From: a virus
Taxonomy: Duplodnaviria > Heunggongvirae > Uroviricota > Caudoviricetes
Direction: 5' to 3' (one strand)
DNA length: 4,936 nucleotides
IMG/VR virus record: IMGVR_UViG_3300014893_000019
Shown here: positions 1 through 4,275 of the stretch, piece by piece
Layout of the letters: each line of letters opens with the position of its first letter
Position numbering within the stretch: the first letter of the stretch is position 1
Notes under the pieces: model-generated
Databases searched by the model: none
What the model saw: only the letters and a program-made list of their open reading frames with translations
Told to the model about the DNA's origin: nothing
Made by a program: the position numbers and the translations under genes

Positions 1-184
1 ATTTCCATTCAGGGTCTGATGGAAATACTTCAGCCTGTTCCAAAGCACGGCGTAAAGAGAACACACCCCCAGCCATAATCTGATGTTTCCCATTGGTCCA
101 GCTATCGCCGCTCTGATCTACAGGGGCGGCTATGTCGTATGACCAAACGACTTCACAGTTATTGTTTAAAATCTGGACTTTCAT
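1..184 (-). CDS. Hypothetical protein, N-terminal part only (runs off the window start); likely first gene of the leftward early operon
   Basis: Reverse-complement translation from ATG at 184..182 gives MKVQILNNNCEVVWSYDIAAPVDQSGDSWTNGKHQIMAGGVFSLRRALEQAEVFPSDPEWK with no stop before position 1. AGGTG lies 6 nt upstream of the ATG on the minus strand (plus 191..195). In-frame alternative starts exist at 205 and 226 but lack an SD. No arginine-rich N-like motif. Absent from the ORF track, presumably because it is truncated at the window edge. Confidence 0.4.
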   Translation of the reverse strand, partial: MKVQILNNNCEVVWSYDIAAPVDQSGDSWTNGKHQIMAGGVFSLRRALEQAEVFPSDPEWK

Positions 185-299
185 TTCATACACCTGCTTT
201 AACATGAGTGCCTGGTGGCACAACATGACTCAACGAATCATCCTGGACGTCATATGCCCCAGGCGGCTACTTCGTGGGCGTCCTGCCTGTTCGTTATCT

Positions 300-390
300 T
301 TGATATAAAATCTAACTTAACTTAGTTATTATGGCAAGAGAAAACACCAAACTTTTCTTAGTTCGGTGCCTTAGTTAGAGAAGAGAGGTC
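300..390 (-). promoter_or_regulatory. Putative OL/PL-like operator-promoter region downstream of the repressor gene, driving leftward transcription
   Basis: Three copies of the 7-mer CTTAGTT (321..327, 357..363, 370..376), the same motif found twice in the cI-cro intergenic region. The copy at 318..328 sits in a 5-1-5 inverted repeat TAACT-T-AGTTA. A minus-strand sigma70-like promoter is readable: -35 TTGCCA (plus 332..337), 17-bp spacer containing that palindrome, -10 TAGATT (plus 309..314). Function inferred by analogy with lambda OL/PL. Confidence 0.45.
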
Positions 391-1017
391 TTAGAGTTCG
401 TATTGAACTCCTTTGACTACACCAATGATAAGGCAATTACCATTGATAGGGATGTTGGGATACCGAGGATTTAATGGCACTAAAAACTTTTGAGGGCCAT
501 CGATGACTAATTTTTTTACTGTAGCTTCGTTTGTTCCATCAAGTCGAGCGATGACTATTTTTCCATGACGAGGTTCTGCATCTGGATCTACAATCACTGT
601 TGCGCCTTCTGGTATTGTTGGGAGGCCATTAGGGTTAGTCATGGAGTCACCTTTAACCTCTAATGCAAATGAGTTATCACCAATCTTTAATGATGTATCT
701 ACCCACTTGTCCACTTCACTAAACACTTCTGCTGCCCTGCACTCAGTAAACTGCCCAGCCTGAACCCACGATATTACAGGAACTCTGCGCATGTTTGTGA
801 CGAGTTTGCCTTCAAACTCAGCACCATAAAGAATGTAATCTATTGACGTATTGAAGAACTTCGCTAATTTCGAAAGTGCCTCCCCACCAGGGGTATTGAT
901 GTCTTTCTCCCAGTACCCCACAGCAACGTCGCTTACTCCACAAAATTTACCCAATTCTTTCTGGGACGTTCCGGTAACTCTTCTCAGAGCTTTTATACGC
1001 TGACCAACCGTTTCCAT
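391..1017 (-). CDS. Phage CI-type repressor: N-terminal XRE-like HTH plus C-terminal S24 (LexA/UmuD-like) autopeptidase domain
   Basis: 208-aa ORF. N-terminus QRIKALRRVTGTSQKELGKFCGVSDVAVGYWE is a typical HTH. C-terminal domain has the S24 serine motif GDSM (Ser125, plus 643..645) and a downstream lysine (VKKL, ~168/169). An Ala-Gly candidate cleavage site lies in the linker (VQAGQ, residues 87-88). It is divergent from a cro-like gene across an AT-rich operator region. Confidence 0.9.
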   Translation of the reverse strand: METVGQRIKALRRVTGTSQKELGKFCGVSDVAVGYWEKDINTPGGEALSKLAKFFNTSIDYILYGAEFEGKLVTNMRRVPVISWVQAGQFTECRAAEVFSEVDKWVDTSLKIGDNSFALEVKGDSMTNPNGLPTIPEGATVIVDPDAEPRHGKIVIARLDGTNEATVKKLVIDGPQKFLVPLNPRYPNIPINGNCLIIGVVKGVQYEL

Positions 1018-1114
1018 AGGAGCACCATTTCTTGAATTGCTAAGTAATCTTAGTTTTTATTGACCAAAGATAGATTTGTAATTAGCATCTAATAAAACTT
1101 AGTTTGGAGGGCGT
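1018..1114. promoter_or_regulatory. Divergent operator/promoter region (OR-like) between the repressor and cro-like genes
   Basis: 97-bp AT-rich intergenic region. CTTAGTT occurs at 1049..1055 and 1098..1104, the latter inside a 5-1-5 inverted repeat AAACT-T-AGTTT (1095..1105). An inverted CTAAG/CTTAG pair spans 1040..1053. Rightward candidate promoter: -35 TTGACC (1060..1065) with a weak -10 TAGCAT (1083..1088). Leftward candidate: -35 TTACAA (plus 1076..1081) with -10 TAAAAA (plus 1054..1059). GGAGG at 1106..1110 is the cro SD. Exact promoter hexamers are uncertain. Confidence 0.6.
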
Positions 1115-1315
1115 ATGACAACTGACGATATCGAAAGCTACTTCGGCAGTATTGAGAAAGTTGCTGCTTTTTTCGGCATAACAACTGAAGCCGTTTATCA
1201 GTGGCGAAACCGTCCGGGCCAGTTAATTCCAAAAGGACGTGCAGCAGAAGCTGCATATAGAACTTGCGGACGGTTGCCATTTAAACCTGAGCTTTATGAA
1301 AAATCTAATGGATAA
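1115..1315 (+). CDS. Cro-like small HTH regulator (YdaS/Cro family)
   Basis: 66-aa ORF with ATG at 1115 and GGAGG 4 nt upstream. Divergent from the CI-type repressor. Sequence FFGITTEAVYQWRNRPGQLIPKGRAAEA matches the small Cro/YdaS-type HTH pattern. Its stop overlaps the start of the next gene. Confidence 0.8.
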   Translation: MTTDDIESYFGSIEKVAAFFGITTEAVYQWRNRPGQLIPKGRAAEAAYRTCGRLPFKPELYEKSNG

Positions 1316-1904
1316 ATCGATTAACAGAAACCACAGAACGATGAGGCTAACCGTGGGTAAGCATCACTGGAAAGTAGAAAAACAGCCTGAGTGGTACGTG
1401 AAAGCTGTCAGAAAAACTATCGCAGCGTTGCCGGGTGGTTACGCTGAAGCAGCTGACTGGCTGGATGTAACAGAGAACGCATTATTTAACCGCCTTCGTG
1501 CCGATGGCGATCAGATTTTCCCGCTGGGATGGGCAATGGTTTTACAGCGCGCGGCTGGCACTCACTACATTGCGGATGCTGTCGCACAGTCTGCTGGTGG
1601 GGTGTTCGTATCGCTTCCTGAAATTGAGGAAGTAGAGAACGCCGATATAAACCAGCGCCTGCTGGAAGTCATCGAACAGATCGGGAATTACTCAAAGCAG
1701 ATTCGTTCGGCAATCGAAGATGGGGTCGTGGAGCCACACGAGCAGACAGCAATTAATGATGAGTTGTATCTGTCAATTTCGAAGCTCCAAGAGCATGCAG
1801 CACTGGTCTACAAAATCTTTTGCGCTCCAGAAAAGAGTGACGCCCGCGAGTGTGCAGCTCCGGGCGTCGTGGCGTTTTGTGTCTGTGGAGAAACTAACGC
1901 ATGA
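1308..1904 (+). CDS. CII-like / YdaT-family phage regulatory protein (function inferred from position and recalled family resemblance)
   Basis: Open frame 1239..1904. The GTG at 1239 has AGGA only 1 nt upstream and would overlap cro by 77 nt, so it is unlikely to be the start. In-frame ATGs at 1296, 1308 and 1341; I chose 1308 (ATGGATAA overlap with the cro stop), but none has a strong SD. Sits immediately downstream of a YdaS/Cro-like gene. C-terminus has a Cys cluster (ECAAPGVVAFCVCGE). Confidence 0.65.
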   Translation: MDKSINRNHRTMRLTVGKHHWKVEKQPEWYVKAVRKTIAALPGGYAEAADWLDVTENALFNRLRADGDQIFPLGWAMVLQRAAGTHYIADAVAQSAGGVFVSLPEIEEVENADINQRLLEVIEQIGNYSKQIRSAIEDGVVEPHEQTAINDELYLSISKLQEHAALVYKIFCAPEKSDARECAAPGVVAFCVCGETNA

Positions 1905-2737: not shown

Positions 2738-2966
2738 TCCGTTGATCCTCAATATTTGCCGTTTGCTTCAGCGTAAAAAAACATCAATTCCTACAGTTGG
2801 GCAGTGGTACACCACGCCTGCAGGGCATGTTCTACGTGTTAGCCTGGTTGACCGTGAATGTCAGAAGGTGATTTGTGAACCGCTGGGCCGTAATTACCGC
2901 ATCAGTATGCCGCTTATAGCCTTTTGCTCCGGAAAAAACATGAAGCATCTCGGAGGTGCAGCATGA
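2730..2966 (+). CDS. Hypothetical small protein (78 aa), basic, four cysteines
   Basis: ATG at 2730 with GGAGG (2717..2721) 8 nt upstream. Overlaps the upstream stop (ATGCTTAA) and its own stop overlaps the rep start (ATGA at 2963..2966). Cysteines at positions 10, 44, 49 and 66. No family recognised. Confidence 0.5.
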   Translation: MLNPLILNICRLLQRKKTSIPTVGQWYTTPAGHVLRVSLVDRECQKVICEPLGRNYRISMPLIAFCSGKNMKHLGGAA

Positions 2967-3793
2967 GTATGGAGCTGATGGTTAAAGCGATGAAAATTCG
3001 AGTGGGTAATCCATTGCGAAAACTGGTTCTGATCAAGCTGGCTGATAATGCCAGCGATCAGGGTGAGTGCTGGCCCAGCTACCAGCATATTGCTGACCAG
3101 TGCGAGATTAGCAAACGTTCTGTGATGAATCATATTGCGGCCCTTTGTGATTCCGGGCTGGTAAAAAAAGTCACCCGGAAAGGTGAAAAAGGTAACTCAA
3201 GTAATATCTATCTCCTTCATCTTGATGGTGCAGGAGATTCACTAGGGGGTAGTGCAAATAATTCACTATCTGGTGCAGCAAATTCACCAGGTAGTGCAGG
3301 AGTTGCACCAGGGGGTGGTGCAGGAGATTCACCCAGAACCAGTCACTCTTTTGAACCAGTCAAAGAACCAGTCAAAGAACCAGTCAATGAACCAATAGCT
3401 GTTGGTGCATCTGCTGATGAGTCTGTGCGAGTTCGTTCAAACCGACCGGAATACTCTCCGGAGTTTGAGCAGGCATGGCTGGCATACCCCAAACGTGCTG
3501 GTGGCAATTCAAAATCTGCAGCCTTCAAAGCCTGGAAAGCCCGTTTGAATGAGGGGGTAAAACCCGAAACCATGCTGGAAGGTGTGAAACGCTACGCGGG
3601 CTGGGTATCTGCGATGGGTAACAGCGGCACACAATTTGTGAAACAGGCTGTCACGTTCTTTGGTCCGGATCGTCATTTCGAAGAATCCTGGGAAGTTCCT
3701 GCGGTATCTGCAGCCAGACGCGAGGACCCGTACTTCAAAGCCAGTTACGACAACGTGGACTACAGCCAGATCCCGGCAGGATTCAGGGGGTAA
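2963..3793 (+). CDS. Phage replication initiator (lambda O-like organisation): N-terminal winged-helix HTH_36-type domain, Gly/Ser/Ala- and Pro-rich linker, C-terminal domain
   Basis: ATG at 2963 with GGAGGT (2952..2957) 5 nt upstream; the track's longer 2924 version starts at TTG without an SD. N-terminus LRKLVLIKLADNASDQGECWPSYQHIADQCEISKRSVMNHIAALCDSGLV...SSNIYLL matches the recalled HTH_36 (PF13730) replication-protein pattern. The central low-complexity linker is encoded by DNA repeats. Conserved-looking C-terminus (EQAWLAYPKRAGG...AAFKAWKARL). Confidence 0.85.
   Translation: MSMELMVKAMKIRVGNPLRKLVLIKLADNASDQGECWPSYQHIADQCEISKRSVMNHIAALCDSGLVKKVTRKGEKGNSSNIYLLHLDGAGDSLGGSANNSLSGAANSPGSAGVAPGGGAGDSPRTSHSFEPVKEPVKEPVNEPIAVGASADESVRVRSNRPEYSPEFEQAWLAYPKRAGGNSKSAAFKAWKARLNEGVKPETMLEGVKRYAGWVSAMGNSGTQFVKQAVTFFGPDRHFEESWEVPAVSAARREDPYFKASYDNVDYSQIPAGFRG
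3226..3396 (+). repeat. Iteron-like direct repeats inside the replication initiator gene; candidate origin of replication
   Basis: Identical 17-mer TGGTGCAGGAGATTCAC at 3226..3242 and 3316..3332. Between them are about five imperfect ~21-23-bp units sharing GGTGCAG/GTAGTGCA and ATTCAC cores (unit starts near 3227, 3248, 3272, 3290, 3317). Followed by three tandem 12-bp units GAACCAGTCAAA/T (3353..3388), with partial copies at 3337..3347 and 3389..3396. The repeats are directly visible; the origin function is inferred. Confidence 0.6.
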
Positions 3794-3795
3794 TC

Positions 3796-4275
3796 ATGAG
3801 TCTTTTGAATGAAGTTCAGAAATTCATTGAAGCCCATCCGGGGTGTACTTCCGGAGACATTGCGGATGCTTTTGCAGGTTACTCACGGCAGCGCGTTCTG
3901 CAGTCAGCAAGCAAGTTACGTCAGAGTGGGCGTGTGGCTNNNNNNNNNNNNNNNNNNNNNNNNNNNNNNNNNNNNNNNNNNNNNNNNNNNNNNNNNNNNN
4001 NNNNNNNNNNNNNNNNNNNNCCTGTGCGCAATTTCTATGTCGGCACTAACGATCCCCGGGTGATTTTGTGCCTGACCCGCCAGGCTGAAGAACTGGAGTC
4101 CAGGGGCTTATACCGTCGTGCTGCAACCGTGTGGATGGCGGCATTCCGTGAAAGCCACTCCCAGCCAGAACGAAACAATTTTCTGGCACGTCGTGAGCGG
4201 TGCTTACGGAAAAGCAGCAAGCGCGCTGTATCGGGTGATGAGTGGTATCTGTCAGGGAATTACGTGGGGGCTTAA
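3796..4275 (+). CDS. ORF interrupted by an N run; the C-terminal part resembles a PerC-family transcriptional regulator, the N-terminal part looks like a small winged-helix/HTH protein. May be one gene or two.
   Basis: ATG at 3796 with GGGGG (3786..3790) 5 nt upstream, 2 nt after the rep stop. The frame is continuous across the 81-nt N run only if that is the true length. The C-terminal segment QAEELESRGLYRRAATVWMAAF...RRERCLRK recalls the PerC/Pch signature. Stop overlaps the Dam start (TAATG). Confidence 0.45.
   Translation: MSLLNEVQKFIEAHPGCTSGDIADAFAGYSRQRVLQSASKLRQSGRVAXXXXXXXXXXXXXXXXXXXXXXXXXXXPVRNFYVGTNDPRVILCLTRQAEELESRGLYRRAATVWMAAFRESHSQPERNNFLARRERCLRKSSKRAVSGDEWYLSGNYVGA
3940..4020. 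other. Run of 81 ambiguous bases (assembly gap or masked sequence)
   Basis: Literal n characters at 3940..4020. True length and content are unknown, so any coding call across it is provisional. Confidence 1.

What the first reader, a model, noticed from the sequence alone, without database searches (positions are those of the whole stretch)
300..1114. Shared operator motif CTTAGTT flanks the repressor gene on both sides
The 7-mer CTTAGTT occurs five times in the same orientation (321, 357, 370, 1049, 1098), all in the two non-coding regions flanking the repressor gene and, as far as I could see by eye, nowhere else in the window. Two copies lie in 5-1-5 inverted repeats (TAACT-T-AGTTA at 318..328, AAACT-T-AGTTT at 1095..1105). 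This is the OL/OR layout of a lambdoid immunity region and gives a testable operator consensus (nnCT-T-AGTTn).
Basis: seen in the sequence. Interest (0 to 1): 0.45.

Follow-up and report, generated by a model that had tools for sequence, protein, structure and literature searches.

The report
Repressor operators of a P22/21-type prophage switch
The repeated CTTAGTT is the well-conserved half of 18-bp binding sites for a prophage's CI-like repressor (and probably its Cro), laid out almost base-for-base as in phages P22 and 21 but with a different recognition sequence; this is an ordinary, uncharacterised immunity type carried by about one in ten complete E. coli genomes.

Summary
CTTAGTT occurs five times, all on the + strand, only in the two non-coding flanks of the repressor gene (expected 0.56; 0 of 200 shuffles reach 5).

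The OL/OR reading is right in outline but wrong in detail. The unit is not a 7-mer or a 5-1-5 palindrome. It is an 18-bp pseudo-palindrome, A-N-CTAAG-W4-CTTAG-N-T, and CTTAGTT is its right half.
- Four of the five copies belong to such sites: OL1 310-327, OL2 346-363, OR3 1038-1055, OR1 1087-1104.
- A weak OR2 (1063-1080) carries no 7-mer.
- The copy at 370 is an orphan half-site and is not conserved.

The supporting evidence:
- The sites sit at fixed offsets in 22 orthologous loci from about ten enterobacterial genera.
- They are 41-fold denser in the flanks than in the rest of those loci, and occur nowhere else in a 43.5-kb phage record.
- They are absent from phage SfV, which shares both flanks but carries a different repressor/cro cassette.
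- The DNA-binding domain is closest to the P22 c2 domain (PDB 2R1J).
- The site-to-promoter geometry matches the annotated phage 21 operators to within 1 bp.
- The half-site sequence changes with the recognition helix across relatives.

Verdict: a new member of a known kind. Binding itself has not been tested.

The parts
310..327 (.). OL1, 18-bp operator ATCTAACTTAACTTAGTT (14-bp core 312-325). It occupies spacer positions 5-17 plus 5 nt of the -10 of the predicted leftward promoter PL.
   Evidence: Core matches the pattern with 0 mismatches. Invariant in mEp460 and LLS while the flanks diverge. Conserved at -76 to -90 from the cI stop in orthologues. Same position relative to PL as the annotated phage 21 OL1.
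346..363 (.). OL2, 18-bp operator ACCAAACTTTTCTTAGTT (core 348-361). It contains the copy at 357. It lies 8 nt upstream of the PL -35 and 36 bp centre-to-centre from OL1. It is embedded in the cI terminator hairpin.
   Evidence: One mismatch to the core pattern. Half-sites are kept while the spacer changes (TTTT to TAAA) in LLS and Enterobacter. In Yersinia and Providencia the equivalent site is a plain CTAAT/CTAAA-N4-CTTAG with no hairpin. In phage 21, OL2 is 35 bp from OL1.
370..376 (+). Probably not an operator.
   Evidence: The left half would be GTTCG (1 of 5). It overlaps the 18-bp footprint of OL2. It is replaced by TTTGGTT in mEp460_4F5 and is variable in orthologues.
338..372 (-). Intrinsic-terminator-like hairpin plus U-run after the repressor stop codon (RNA sense is the - strand). 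It overlaps OL2.
   Evidence: RNA fold -15.1 kcal/mol, z = -2.46. An 11-pair consensus stem in 11 orthologues, with one compensatory C-G to U-A pair and several G-U-compatible changes. The simple terminator scan did not list it.
309..337 (-). Predicted PL: -35 TTGCCA (337..332), 17-nt spacer, -10 TAGATT (314..309).
   Evidence: Consensus scan. The -35 is TTGACC in most orthologues and the -10 is conserved.
391..1017 (-). CI-type repressor, 208 aa: N-terminal HTH and C-terminal S24 autopeptidase. Ala87-Gly88, Ser125 and Lys168 have the same spacing as lambda CI Ala111-Gly112/Ser149/Lys192.
   Evidence: Pfam HTH_3 1.1e-10 and Peptidase_S24 9.2e-28. The N-terminal domain is closest to the P22 c2 domain, E = 1.9e-10. 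48.8% identical to phage 21 cI. The lambda residue numbering is from my own knowledge.
1038..1055 (.). OR3, 18-bp operator TGCTAAGTAATCTTAGTT (perfect 5-4-5 core 1040-1053). It contains the copy at 1049. It ends 4 nt upstream of the PR -35 and 23 bp from the cI ATG.
   Evidence: Zero mismatches on both strands. Invariant block. Found 22-26 bp from the cI start in 20 of 22 orthologues. Same offset from the -35 as the cI-proximal operator of phage 21.
1063..1080 (.). OR2 (weak), ACCAAAGATAGATTTGTA. It has no CTTAGTT. It starts at the 4th base of the PR -35 and fills the spacer. Its centre is 25 bp from OR3 and 24 bp from OR1.
   Evidence: Scores 7 of 10 here and 8 of 10 in Rahnella (CTAAT-aaag-ATTAG). 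In mEp460 the left half is a perfect CTAAG. Same position as the middle operator of phage 21. Photorhabdus and Xenorhabdus relatives show the same 25/24-bp spacing.
1060..1088 (+). Predicted PR: -35 TTGACC (1060-1065), 17-nt spacer, -10 TAGCAT (1083-1088).
   Evidence: Consensus scan. The -35 is invariant and the -10 is TAATAT/TAACAT in relatives.
1087..1104 (.). OR1, 18-bp operator ATCTAATAAAACTTAGTT (core 1089-1102). It contains the copy at 1098. It overlaps the last 2 nt of the PR -10 and the predicted start site, and ends just before the cro Shine-Dalgarno GGAGG.
   Evidence: Lies exactly 49 bp from OR3 in orthologues. Same offset as the cro-proximal operator of phage 21, within 1 bp.
1115..1315 (+). 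Cro-like protein, 66 aa, transcribed divergently from the repressor gene.
   Evidence: Pfam P22_Cro 4.4e-11.
296..1328 (.). The exchangeable immunity cassette: operators, cI and cro.
   Evidence: Window 1-295 and 1329-1500 are about 97% identical to phage SfV, while 296-1328 has no similarity to it.

Best explanation
The CTTAGTT copies are the right halves of 18-bp pseudo-palindromic operators with consensus A-N-C-T-A-A-G-(A/T)4-C-T-T-A-G-N-T. A dimer of the adjacent CI-type repressor is inferred to bind them, and the divergently encoded P22-type Cro probably binds them too.

Three sites lie at OR. OR1 covers the end of the PR -10 and the start site. A weak OR2 lies in the PR spacer. OR3 lies just upstream of the PR -35, towards cI. 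Two sites lie at OL. OL1 sits in the spacer and -10 of PL, and OL2 sits upstream of the PL -35.

Repressor bound at OR1/OR2 and at OL1 would block RNA polymerase at PR and PL and so maintain lysogeny. OR3 would allow autoregulation of cI. RecA-stimulated self-cleavage at Ala87-Gly88 would lift repression, after which Cro binding the same sites would commit the phage to lytic growth.

What is shown: the motif statistics, the conservation, the geometry, the homology and the co-segregation of motif with cassette. What is inferred: the binding itself, the order of affinities, cooperativity and the position of PRM.
For: 1. Enrichment. CTTAGTT occurs 5 times against 0.56 expected. The 14-mer CTAAN-N4-CTTAG with up to 1 mismatch hits 4 sites against 0.76 strand-matches expected, with 0 of 200 shuffles as high.
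2. Whole phage record, 43.5 kb. The 14-mer occurs only at the four immunity sites.
3. Phylogenetic footprint. In 22 orthologous loci (repressors 63-95% identical; Escherichia phages, Enterobacter, Kosakonia, Kluyvera, Serratia, Rahnella, Yersinia, Rouxiella, Providencia, Proteus), sites scoring at least 8 of 10 sit at fixed offsets from the gene. They are 41-fold denser in the flanks than in the rest of the loci. In a frequency matrix of 53 distinct sites, positions 1-4 and 10-14 are nearly invariant, the spacer is A/T, and there is a symmetric A at -1 (46/53) and T at 16 (49/53).
4. Among 67 near-identical viral loci, all but one of the variants fall outside the core positions.
5. Natural swap. 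SfV has the same flanks but a different cI/cro cassette. It has no CTTAGTT and no 14-mer there, and carries its own GGGTACA repeats on both sides of its cI.
6. Homology. The protein has HTH plus S24 domains. Its N-terminal domain aligns without gaps to the P22 c2 N-terminal domain, 2R1J/3JXB. It is 48.8% identical to phage 21 cI.
7. P22 repressor binds 18-bp symmetric sites as a dimer and does not contact the central 4 bp, where A/T-rich sequence is favoured (PMC4267663). The annotated phage 21 operators are (A/T)TTAAG-N4-CTTAA(A/T). The offsets of OR3, OR2, OR1, OL1 and OL2 from the -35/-10 hexamers match phage 21 to within 1 bp.
8. Specificity covaries with the recognition helix. VSHVAISQWE goes with TTAAG-N4-CTTAA. 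VNRVTVTGWE goes with GTA(A/G)G-N4-C(C/T)TAC. VSDVAVGYWE (this window) goes with CTAAG-N4-CTTAG. All three have the same 25/24-bp OR spacing.
Against: No binding data exist for this repressor, and I found no paper that quotes these sequences. The consensus scan found no PRM. OR2 is weak (7 of 10) and was called partly from its position. OL2 overlaps a conserved terminator hairpin, so part of its conservation could serve the RNA rather than the operator. There is no OL3, unlike phage 21 and P22. OL and OR are related by descent (81% identity between 312-332 and 1040-1060), so similarity within one genome is not independent evidence on its own.
Confidence: 0.86

Rival explanations
1. One reading: the recognition unit is the 7-mer or a short 5-1-5 palindrome (nnCT-T-AGTTn), and all five copies are equivalent operators read in one orientation.
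For: Five exact copies, all on one strand. Two copies lie in 11-bp palindromes.
Against: The outer pairs of the 5-1-5 repeat are not conserved (about 1.5 of 3), whereas the 5-4-5 pairs are (OR3 4.7 of 5, OR1 4.15 of 5). In many orthologues the 7-mer reads CTTAGCT, CTTAGAT or CTTAGGT while the left half CTAA is kept. The copy at 370 is lost in mEp460. An 11-bp palindrome places the half-site centres about 6 bp apart. The P22-type HTH dimer to which this domain aligns spans 18 bp.
Confidence: 0.04
2. The motif is conserved for reasons other than repressor binding. It could be part of the promoter or terminator signals, or a passive remnant of an OL/OR duplication.
For: OL1 overlaps the PL -10, OR1 abuts the PR -10, and OL2 lies in a terminator hairpin. 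OL and OR share extended similarity.
Against: The conserved bases (CTAA/CTTAG) are not the promoter hexamers. The CTTAG half of OL2 lies largely in the apical part of the hairpin, where termination would need no particular sequence. SfV keeps the same flanking DNA and promoter layout but has a different motif matched to its own repressor. The half-site sequence tracks the recognition helix across relatives.
Confidence: 0.05
3. The sites are bound mainly by another factor of the element or host, and not by the CI-like repressor. Candidates are Cro alone, the CP76-type CII, or the Ash-family protein.
For: The cassette that co-segregates with the motif also carries cro. CII-like and Ash-family genes lie just downstream.
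Against: In the homologous, experimentally studied P22 system, the repressor binds six sites of exactly this form (PMC4267663). The motif co-segregates with 296-1328, which excludes the CII and Ash genes. Cro sharing the sites is part of the main model and not an alternative to it.
Confidence: 0.05

Closest known systems
Phage 21 immunity region (cI, cro, OR1-3, OL1-3)
   Same: The repressor is 48.8% identical and cro belongs to the P22_Cro family. The operators are 18 bp, built as 7-4-7 with an xTAAG-N4-CTTAx core. OR3 ends 4 nt before the PR -35, OR2 starts at the 4th base of the -35, and OR1 starts in the -10. OL1 covers spacer positions 5-17 plus 5 nt of the PL -10, and OL2 lies 7-8 nt upstream of the -35.
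   Different: The half-site is CTAAG/CTTAG(nT) here and TTAAG/CTTAA(AT) in phage 21. The recognition helix is VSDVAVGYWEKD here and VSNVAISQWERS there. This window has no OL3; a terminator hairpin overlaps OL2 instead, whereas in phage 21 the terminator lies separately before OL3. The cI ATG is 23 bp from OR3 here and immediately adjacent in phage 21. No N/nut features are evident, and the neighbouring genes are of the SfV/e14 type.
Phage P22 c2 repressor and its operators (structures 2R1J, 3JXB-D, 1ADR)
   Same: It is the best solved-structure match of the N-terminal domain, gapless over 63 residues. The P22 repressor binds an 18-bp rotationally symmetric site as a dimer, the central 4 bp are not contacted, and A/T-rich centres are favoured. 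The spacers here are TTAA, TTTT, TAAT, ATAG and AAAA.
   Different: The helix residues differ (P22 numbering, then this protein): N32 to D30, I35 to V33, S36 to G34, Q37 to Y35. P22 Asn46 aligns with a Gly here. The outer half-site bases differ. Full-length identity is only about 38% to the related phage L c2.
Lambda cI/cro OR-OL switch
   Same: A divergent cI/cro pair. Three operators at OR about 24 bp apart that overlap PR. Operators at OL that overlap PL. An S24 autocleavage module whose Ala-Gly/Ser/Lys spacing equals lambda's (111-112/149/192; my own knowledge).
   Different: The lambda repressor is only 34.6% identical. Lambda operators are 17 bp with an odd central base and an unrelated sequence. 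Lambda has rexAB between cI and OL, and three OL sites.
Phage SfV immunity cassette
   Same: It occupies the same genomic slot. The flanks, 1-295 and 1329-1500, are 97% identical.
   Different: The cI and cro are unrelated in DNA sequence, and the repeated motif is different (GGGTACA) on both sides of its cI. It is a heteroimmune allele of the same slot.

Membership tests
Lambdoid CI/Cro immunity switch (OL/OR) | Repressor with an N-terminal HTH and a C-terminal LexA-like S24 autopeptidase | tested here: met
   Pfam HTH_3 (residues 8-62) and Peptidase_S24 (residues 80-201). Ala87-Gly88, Ser125 and Lys168 are present in the translated sequence.
Lambdoid CI/Cro immunity switch (OL/OR) | Divergently transcribed cro gene separated from cI by a roughly 100-bp control region | tested here: met
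   A P22_Cro-family ORF at 1115..1315 (+), 97 bp from the cI start.
Lambdoid CI/Cro immunity switch (OL/OR) | Several related pseudo-palindromic sites at OR that overlap PR (and PRM), and at OL that overlap PL | tested here: met
   OR3, OR2 and OR1 overlap the predicted PR. OL1 overlaps the predicted PL. No PRM could be identified by consensus.
Lambdoid CI/Cro immunity switch (OL/OR) | The operator sequence is specific to the immunity cassette, and heteroimmune alleles carry other motifs | tested here: met
   The SfV swap. Relatives with other recognition helices have other half-sites.
Lambdoid CI/Cro immunity switch (OL/OR) | Repressor and Cro physically bind the sites and repress PR and PL | not testable with these tools
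   This needs EMSA or footprinting and reporter assays. No published data were found.
P22 c2 / phage 21 cI repressor-operator family | DNA-binding domain homologous to the P22 c2 N-terminal domain | tested here: met
   phmmer against PDB gives 2R1J, 3JXB and 1ADR at E = 1.9e-10. tblastn gives 48.8% identity to phage 21 cI.
P22 c2 / phage 21 cI repressor-operator family | 18-bp operator built as 7-4-7, with conserved outer halves and a non-conserved A/T-rich central 4 bp | tested here: met
   Frequency matrix of 53 orthologous sites. Compare the phage 21 annotated operators and the P22 description.
P22 c2 / phage 21 cI repressor-operator family | Same immunity specificity as P22/21 (TTAAG half-sites; homoimmune) | tested here: not met
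   The half-site here is CTAAG/CTTAG, and the helix differs at four positions. It is therefore a heteroimmune relative and not the same immunity.
P22 c2 / phage 21 cI repressor-operator family | Three operators at OL | tested here: not met
   Only OL1 and OL2 are found. The place of OL3 is taken by the terminator hairpin and an orphan half-site.

The most novel reading that the evidence does not exclude
OL2 may be a dual-use element. Its DNA would be an operator. Its transcript forms the stem and loop of the cI terminator. The orphan CTTAGTT 13 bp away would offer an alternative binding register. Repressor occupancy would then tune read-through from cI into the leftward operon, or tune termination efficiency. 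That would replace the missing OL3 and give a coupling between operator and terminator that has not been described for P22, 21 or lambda. Separately, the three natural helix/half-site pairs (T-, C- and G-TAAG) could serve as a readable specificity code for this scaffold.
Probability: 0.1. Interest if true: 0.45.

Novelty: new member of a known kind. Interest (0 to 1): 0.27.

Why it matters
This immunity type is common. It is present in 517 of 5426 complete E. coli genomes and in more than 590 viral contigs, yet it is annotated only as 'LexA family' or 'Cro/CI family'. A defined operator consensus makes three things possible: predicting homo- versus heteroimmunity among SfV/e14-like prophages, building reporters for induction, and designing specificity-swap experiments on the structurally well-understood P22 c2 scaffold (for example CTTAG to CTTAA paired with D30N/G34S/Y35Q). 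It does not change the current understanding of how such switches work.

Tried and rejected
- The 5-1-5 palindrome as the unit: rejected, because its outer pairs are not conserved.
- The copy at 370 as OL3: rejected. It has no left half, it overlaps the OL2 footprint, and it is absent in mEp460.
- A site midway between OL1 and OL2, or 29 bp beyond OL2 as in phage 21: none is visible in the sequence.
- PRM by consensus scan: not found. Hand-picked hexamers were unconvincing and are not reported as parts.
- Viral contigs relatives: the best 80 were all 100% identical proteins, so they were useful only for fine-scale SNP mapping.
- Literature: the papers mentioning mEp460 are genome surveys, and no paper in the library contains the operator strings. 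The original P22/21 operator paper (Poteete et al. 1980, recalled from memory) is not in the library, so I used the annotated phage 21 record and PMC4267663 instead.
- Rfam on 1-1400: no match.
- The single extra CTTAGTT in the whole phage record (L166 22338): it has no CTAA partner and is taken as chance.
- The PL-leader RNA as an HK022 put element: the covariance model found nothing in HK022 24000-32000.
Full report
OBSERVATION

CTTAGTT occurs five times in the 4936-bp window, at 321, 357, 370, 1049 and 1098. All five are on the + strand, and there is no copy elsewhere on either strand. Dinucleotide-preserving shuffles give a mean of 0.56, and none of 200 reaches five. All five lie in the non-coding DNA on either side of a 208-aa ORF on the - strand (391..1017).

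GENES

- The ORF has an HTH_3 domain (residues 8-62) and a Peptidase_S24 domain (residues 80-201).
- Ala87-Gly88, Ser125 and Lys168 have the same spacing as the cleavage site and catalytic dyad of lambda CI (lambda numbering from my own knowledge).
- A 66-aa P22_Cro-family ORF (1115..1315) is transcribed divergently from it.
- Downstream come a CP76-type CII, an Ash-family protein, an HTH_36/DnaD-like replication protein and a Dam methylase.
- A leftward ORF starts at 184 and runs off the window.
- The consensus scan finds PR (TTGACC 1060-1065, 17 nt, TAGCAT 1083-1088, + strand) and PL (TTGCCA 337..332, 17 nt, TAGATT 314..309, - strand). It finds no PRM.

WHAT THE UNIT REALLY IS

Four of the five copies have, nine bases to their left, a partner resembling the reverse complement of CTTAG:
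- CTAAC-TTAA-CTTAG (312-325)
- CAAAC-TTTT-CTTAG (348-361)
- CTAAG-TAAT-CTTAG (1040-1053)
- CTAAT-AAAA-CTTAG (1089-1102)

The pattern CTAAN-N4-CTTAG with at most one mismatch hits only these four places. Expected strand-matches are 0.76 and seven are observed, with 0 of 200 shuffles as high. The copy at 370 has no such partner.

Between the two OR sites lies a degenerate site, CAAAG-ATAG-ATTTG (1065-1078). Its centre is 25 bp from one OR site and 24 bp from the other.

COMPARATIVE EVIDENCE

Prevalence. The same immunity region is 99-100% identical in Escherichia phages vB_EcoM-689R6 and vB_EcoS-569R4, 94.7% in mEp460_4F5 and 77% in phage LLS. It is present in 517 of 5426 complete E. coli genomes and in more than 590 viral contigs.

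Three-way alignments. The 14-mers are invariant or change only in the spacer, while the surrounding non-coding DNA diverges. The copy at 370 is lost in mEp460.

Orthologues. A scan of one genome per species returned 20 orthologous repressors, 63-90% identical, from Enterobacter, Kosakonia, Kluyvera, Serratia, Rahnella, Yersinia, Rouxiella, Providencia and Proteus. All have the recognition helix CGVSDV(A/S/T)VGYWEKD or a near variant. Sites matching at least 8 of 10 core positions sit at these offsets:
- 22-26 bp upstream of the cI start
- exactly 49 bp further on
- 76-90 bp and 40-54 bp beyond the cI stop, in most loci

Their density in the flanks is 41 times that in the rest of the loci.

Frequency matrix. 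Across 53 distinct sites, positions 1-4 (CTAA) and 10-14 (CTTAG) are nearly invariant. Position 5 is free and the four central bases are A/T. There is a symmetric pair of A at -1 (46/53) and T at 16 (49/53). The operator is therefore 18 bp: A-N-CTAAG-W4-CTTAG-N-T.

About 1.5 of its 3 outer pairs hold, against 4.2-4.7 of 5 for the 5-4-5 pairs at OR1 and OR3.

Fine-scale variation. Among 67 near-identical viral loci, all but one of the variants fall outside the core positions.

WHOLE-ELEMENT COUNT AND NATURAL SWAP

In the complete 43.5-kb record of vB_EcoM-689R6, the 14-mer occurs only at the four immunity sites. CTTAGTT occurs six times, five of them there. The sixth has no partner half-site.

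Phage SfV shares window 1-295 and 1329-1500 at about 97% identity, but it carries an unrelated cI/cro cassette in between. That cassette has no CTTAGTT and no 14-mer, and instead has its own GGGTACA repeats on both sides of its cI. The motif therefore travels with the 296-1328 cassette.

COMPARISON WITH KNOWN SYSTEMS

- The N-terminal 70 residues align without gaps to the P22 c2 N-terminal domain (2R1J, 3JXB, 1ADR; E = 1.9e-10).
- The whole protein is 48.8% identical to phage 21 cI and about 38% to phage L c2.
- P22 repressor binds six rotationally symmetric 18-bp sites as a dimer and contacts the outer bases only. It reads the central four bases indirectly and favours A/T-rich centres (PMC4267663).
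- The annotated phage 21 record lists three OR and three OL operators of the form (A/T)TTAAG-N4-CTTAA(A/T).

Placed side by side, the geometry matches within 1 bp. In both phages:
- OR3 ends 4 nt before the PR -35.
- OR2 begins at the fourth base of the -35.
- OR1 begins inside the -10.
- OL1 occupies spacer positions 5-17 plus five bases of the PL -10.
- OL2 lies 7-8 nt upstream of the PL -35.

More distant relatives keep the same 25/24-bp OR spacing, and their half-sites change with the recognition helix. VSHVAISQWE (Photorhabdus, Xenorhabdus) goes with TTAAG-N4-CTTAA. VNRVTVTGWE (Morganella, Proteus) goes with GTA(A/G)G-N4-C(C/T)TAC. VSDVAVGYWE (this window) goes with CTAAG-N4-CTTAG.

MECHANISM (inferred)

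Repressor dimers at OR1/OR2 and at OL1 would occlude PR and PL. OR3 would provide autoregulation. RecA-stimulated autocleavage would induce the prophage. Cro would use the same sites. None of this binding has been measured. I found no paper quoting these sequences, and databases give only generic names.

DIFFERENCES FROM P22 AND PHAGE 21

The half-site differs (C in place of T at the outer core position, and G-n-T in place of A-A-T at the flank). The helix differs at four positions. There are only two OL sites.

In addition, OL2 is embedded in a hairpin on the - strand that looks like the cI terminator: -15.1 kcal/mol, z = -2.46. An 11-pair consensus stem is found in 11 orthologues, with one compensatory pair. 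In Yersinia and Providencia the equivalent OL2 is a plain operator with no hairpin, so the operator reading of OL2 stands. The overlap with the terminator may nonetheless matter, as set out in the novel case.

VERDICT

The OL/OR interpretation is correct in outline. The proposed consensus is wrong, one of the five copies is probably not a site, and one weak site was missed. This is a heteroimmune member of the well-known P22/21 repressor-operator family. It is common in E. coli and uncharacterised, but mechanistically ordinary.

SIDE OBSERVATION

Just outside the cassette, at about +4 to +73 of the predicted PL transcript (298..229, - strand), lies a roughly 64-nt element that is conserved across heteroimmune prophages.
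- It shows strong covariation: 5-6 pairs with compensatory double changes. In mEp237 the outer stem is completely swapped.
- There is one copy per phage.
- It is unannotated in 49 phage records.
- It is absent from Rfam, and the model does not detect it in HK022.

It deserves its own follow-up.

Noticed in passing
window 229-298, - strand (RNA sense); also L086 729-798, L166 30903-30972, L168 1491-1560, and L090, L091, L094, L097, L107, L109, L110, L112, L114: A roughly 64-nt structured RNA candidate starts about 4 nt after the predicted PL start, outside the immunity cassette. It is shared by heteroimmune prophages: SfV, SfII, SfIV, ST64B, mEp237, phiNP, and prophages of Yersinia, Photorhabdus and Xenorhabdus. 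It forms a three-helix fold with 5-6 covarying pairs, and in mEp237 the outer stem is fully swapped to CCACC/GGUGG. G-U pairs favour the PL-transcript strand. There is one copy per phage. It has no Rfam match, no annotation in 49 phage records and no paper quoting its sequence. The covariance model did not find it in HK022, phage 21 or phage L. Its function is unknown. A cis-acting leader of the leftward early operon, for example an antitermination or processing element, is a guess.
   Followed up: partly
window 338-372, - strand: An intrinsic-terminator-like hairpin plus U-run directly after the repressor stop codon. It overlaps operator OL2. It is conserved in 11 orthologues with one compensatory pair. 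The simple terminator scan missed it.
   Followed up: partly
window 3353-3394 and 3248-3299 (+), inside the replication-protein ORF 2963..3793: There are 3.5 tandem copies of GAACCAGTCAAA (96% matches), plus about 2.5 looser 21-bp repeats (GGTAGTGCAGAAAATTCACCA) just upstream. These may be origin iterons inside the initiator gene, as in lambda O, but they also encode a repetitive linker (PVKEPVKEPVNEP).
   Followed up: no
window 3940-4020: A run of 81 N (masked sequence or an assembly gap) interrupts the ORF 3796..4275.
   Followed up: no
L086 (SfV) 706-877 and 1553-1642: The heteroimmune SfV cassette carries its own repeated motif, GGGTACA / TGTACC(C), on both sides of its cI. These are candidate SfV operators in the same OL/OR layout.
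   Followed up: no
L099 2258-2351 and L108 2334-2427 (window orientation; Serratia MAG and an uncultured gammaproteobacterium): These loci lack OL sites next to the repressor stop. They have a second pair of perfect CTAAG-N4-CTTAG sites 49 bp apart, about 430-500 bp on the cro side. This may be a relocated or duplicated control region.
   Followed up: no
L113, L115-L117 (Morganella, Proteus), region upstream of the repressor: Relatives with the recognition helix VNRVTVTGWE have TGTAGG/TGTAAG-ATAT-CTTACA/CCTACA palindromes. This is a third specificity class on the same scaffold.
   Followed up: partly
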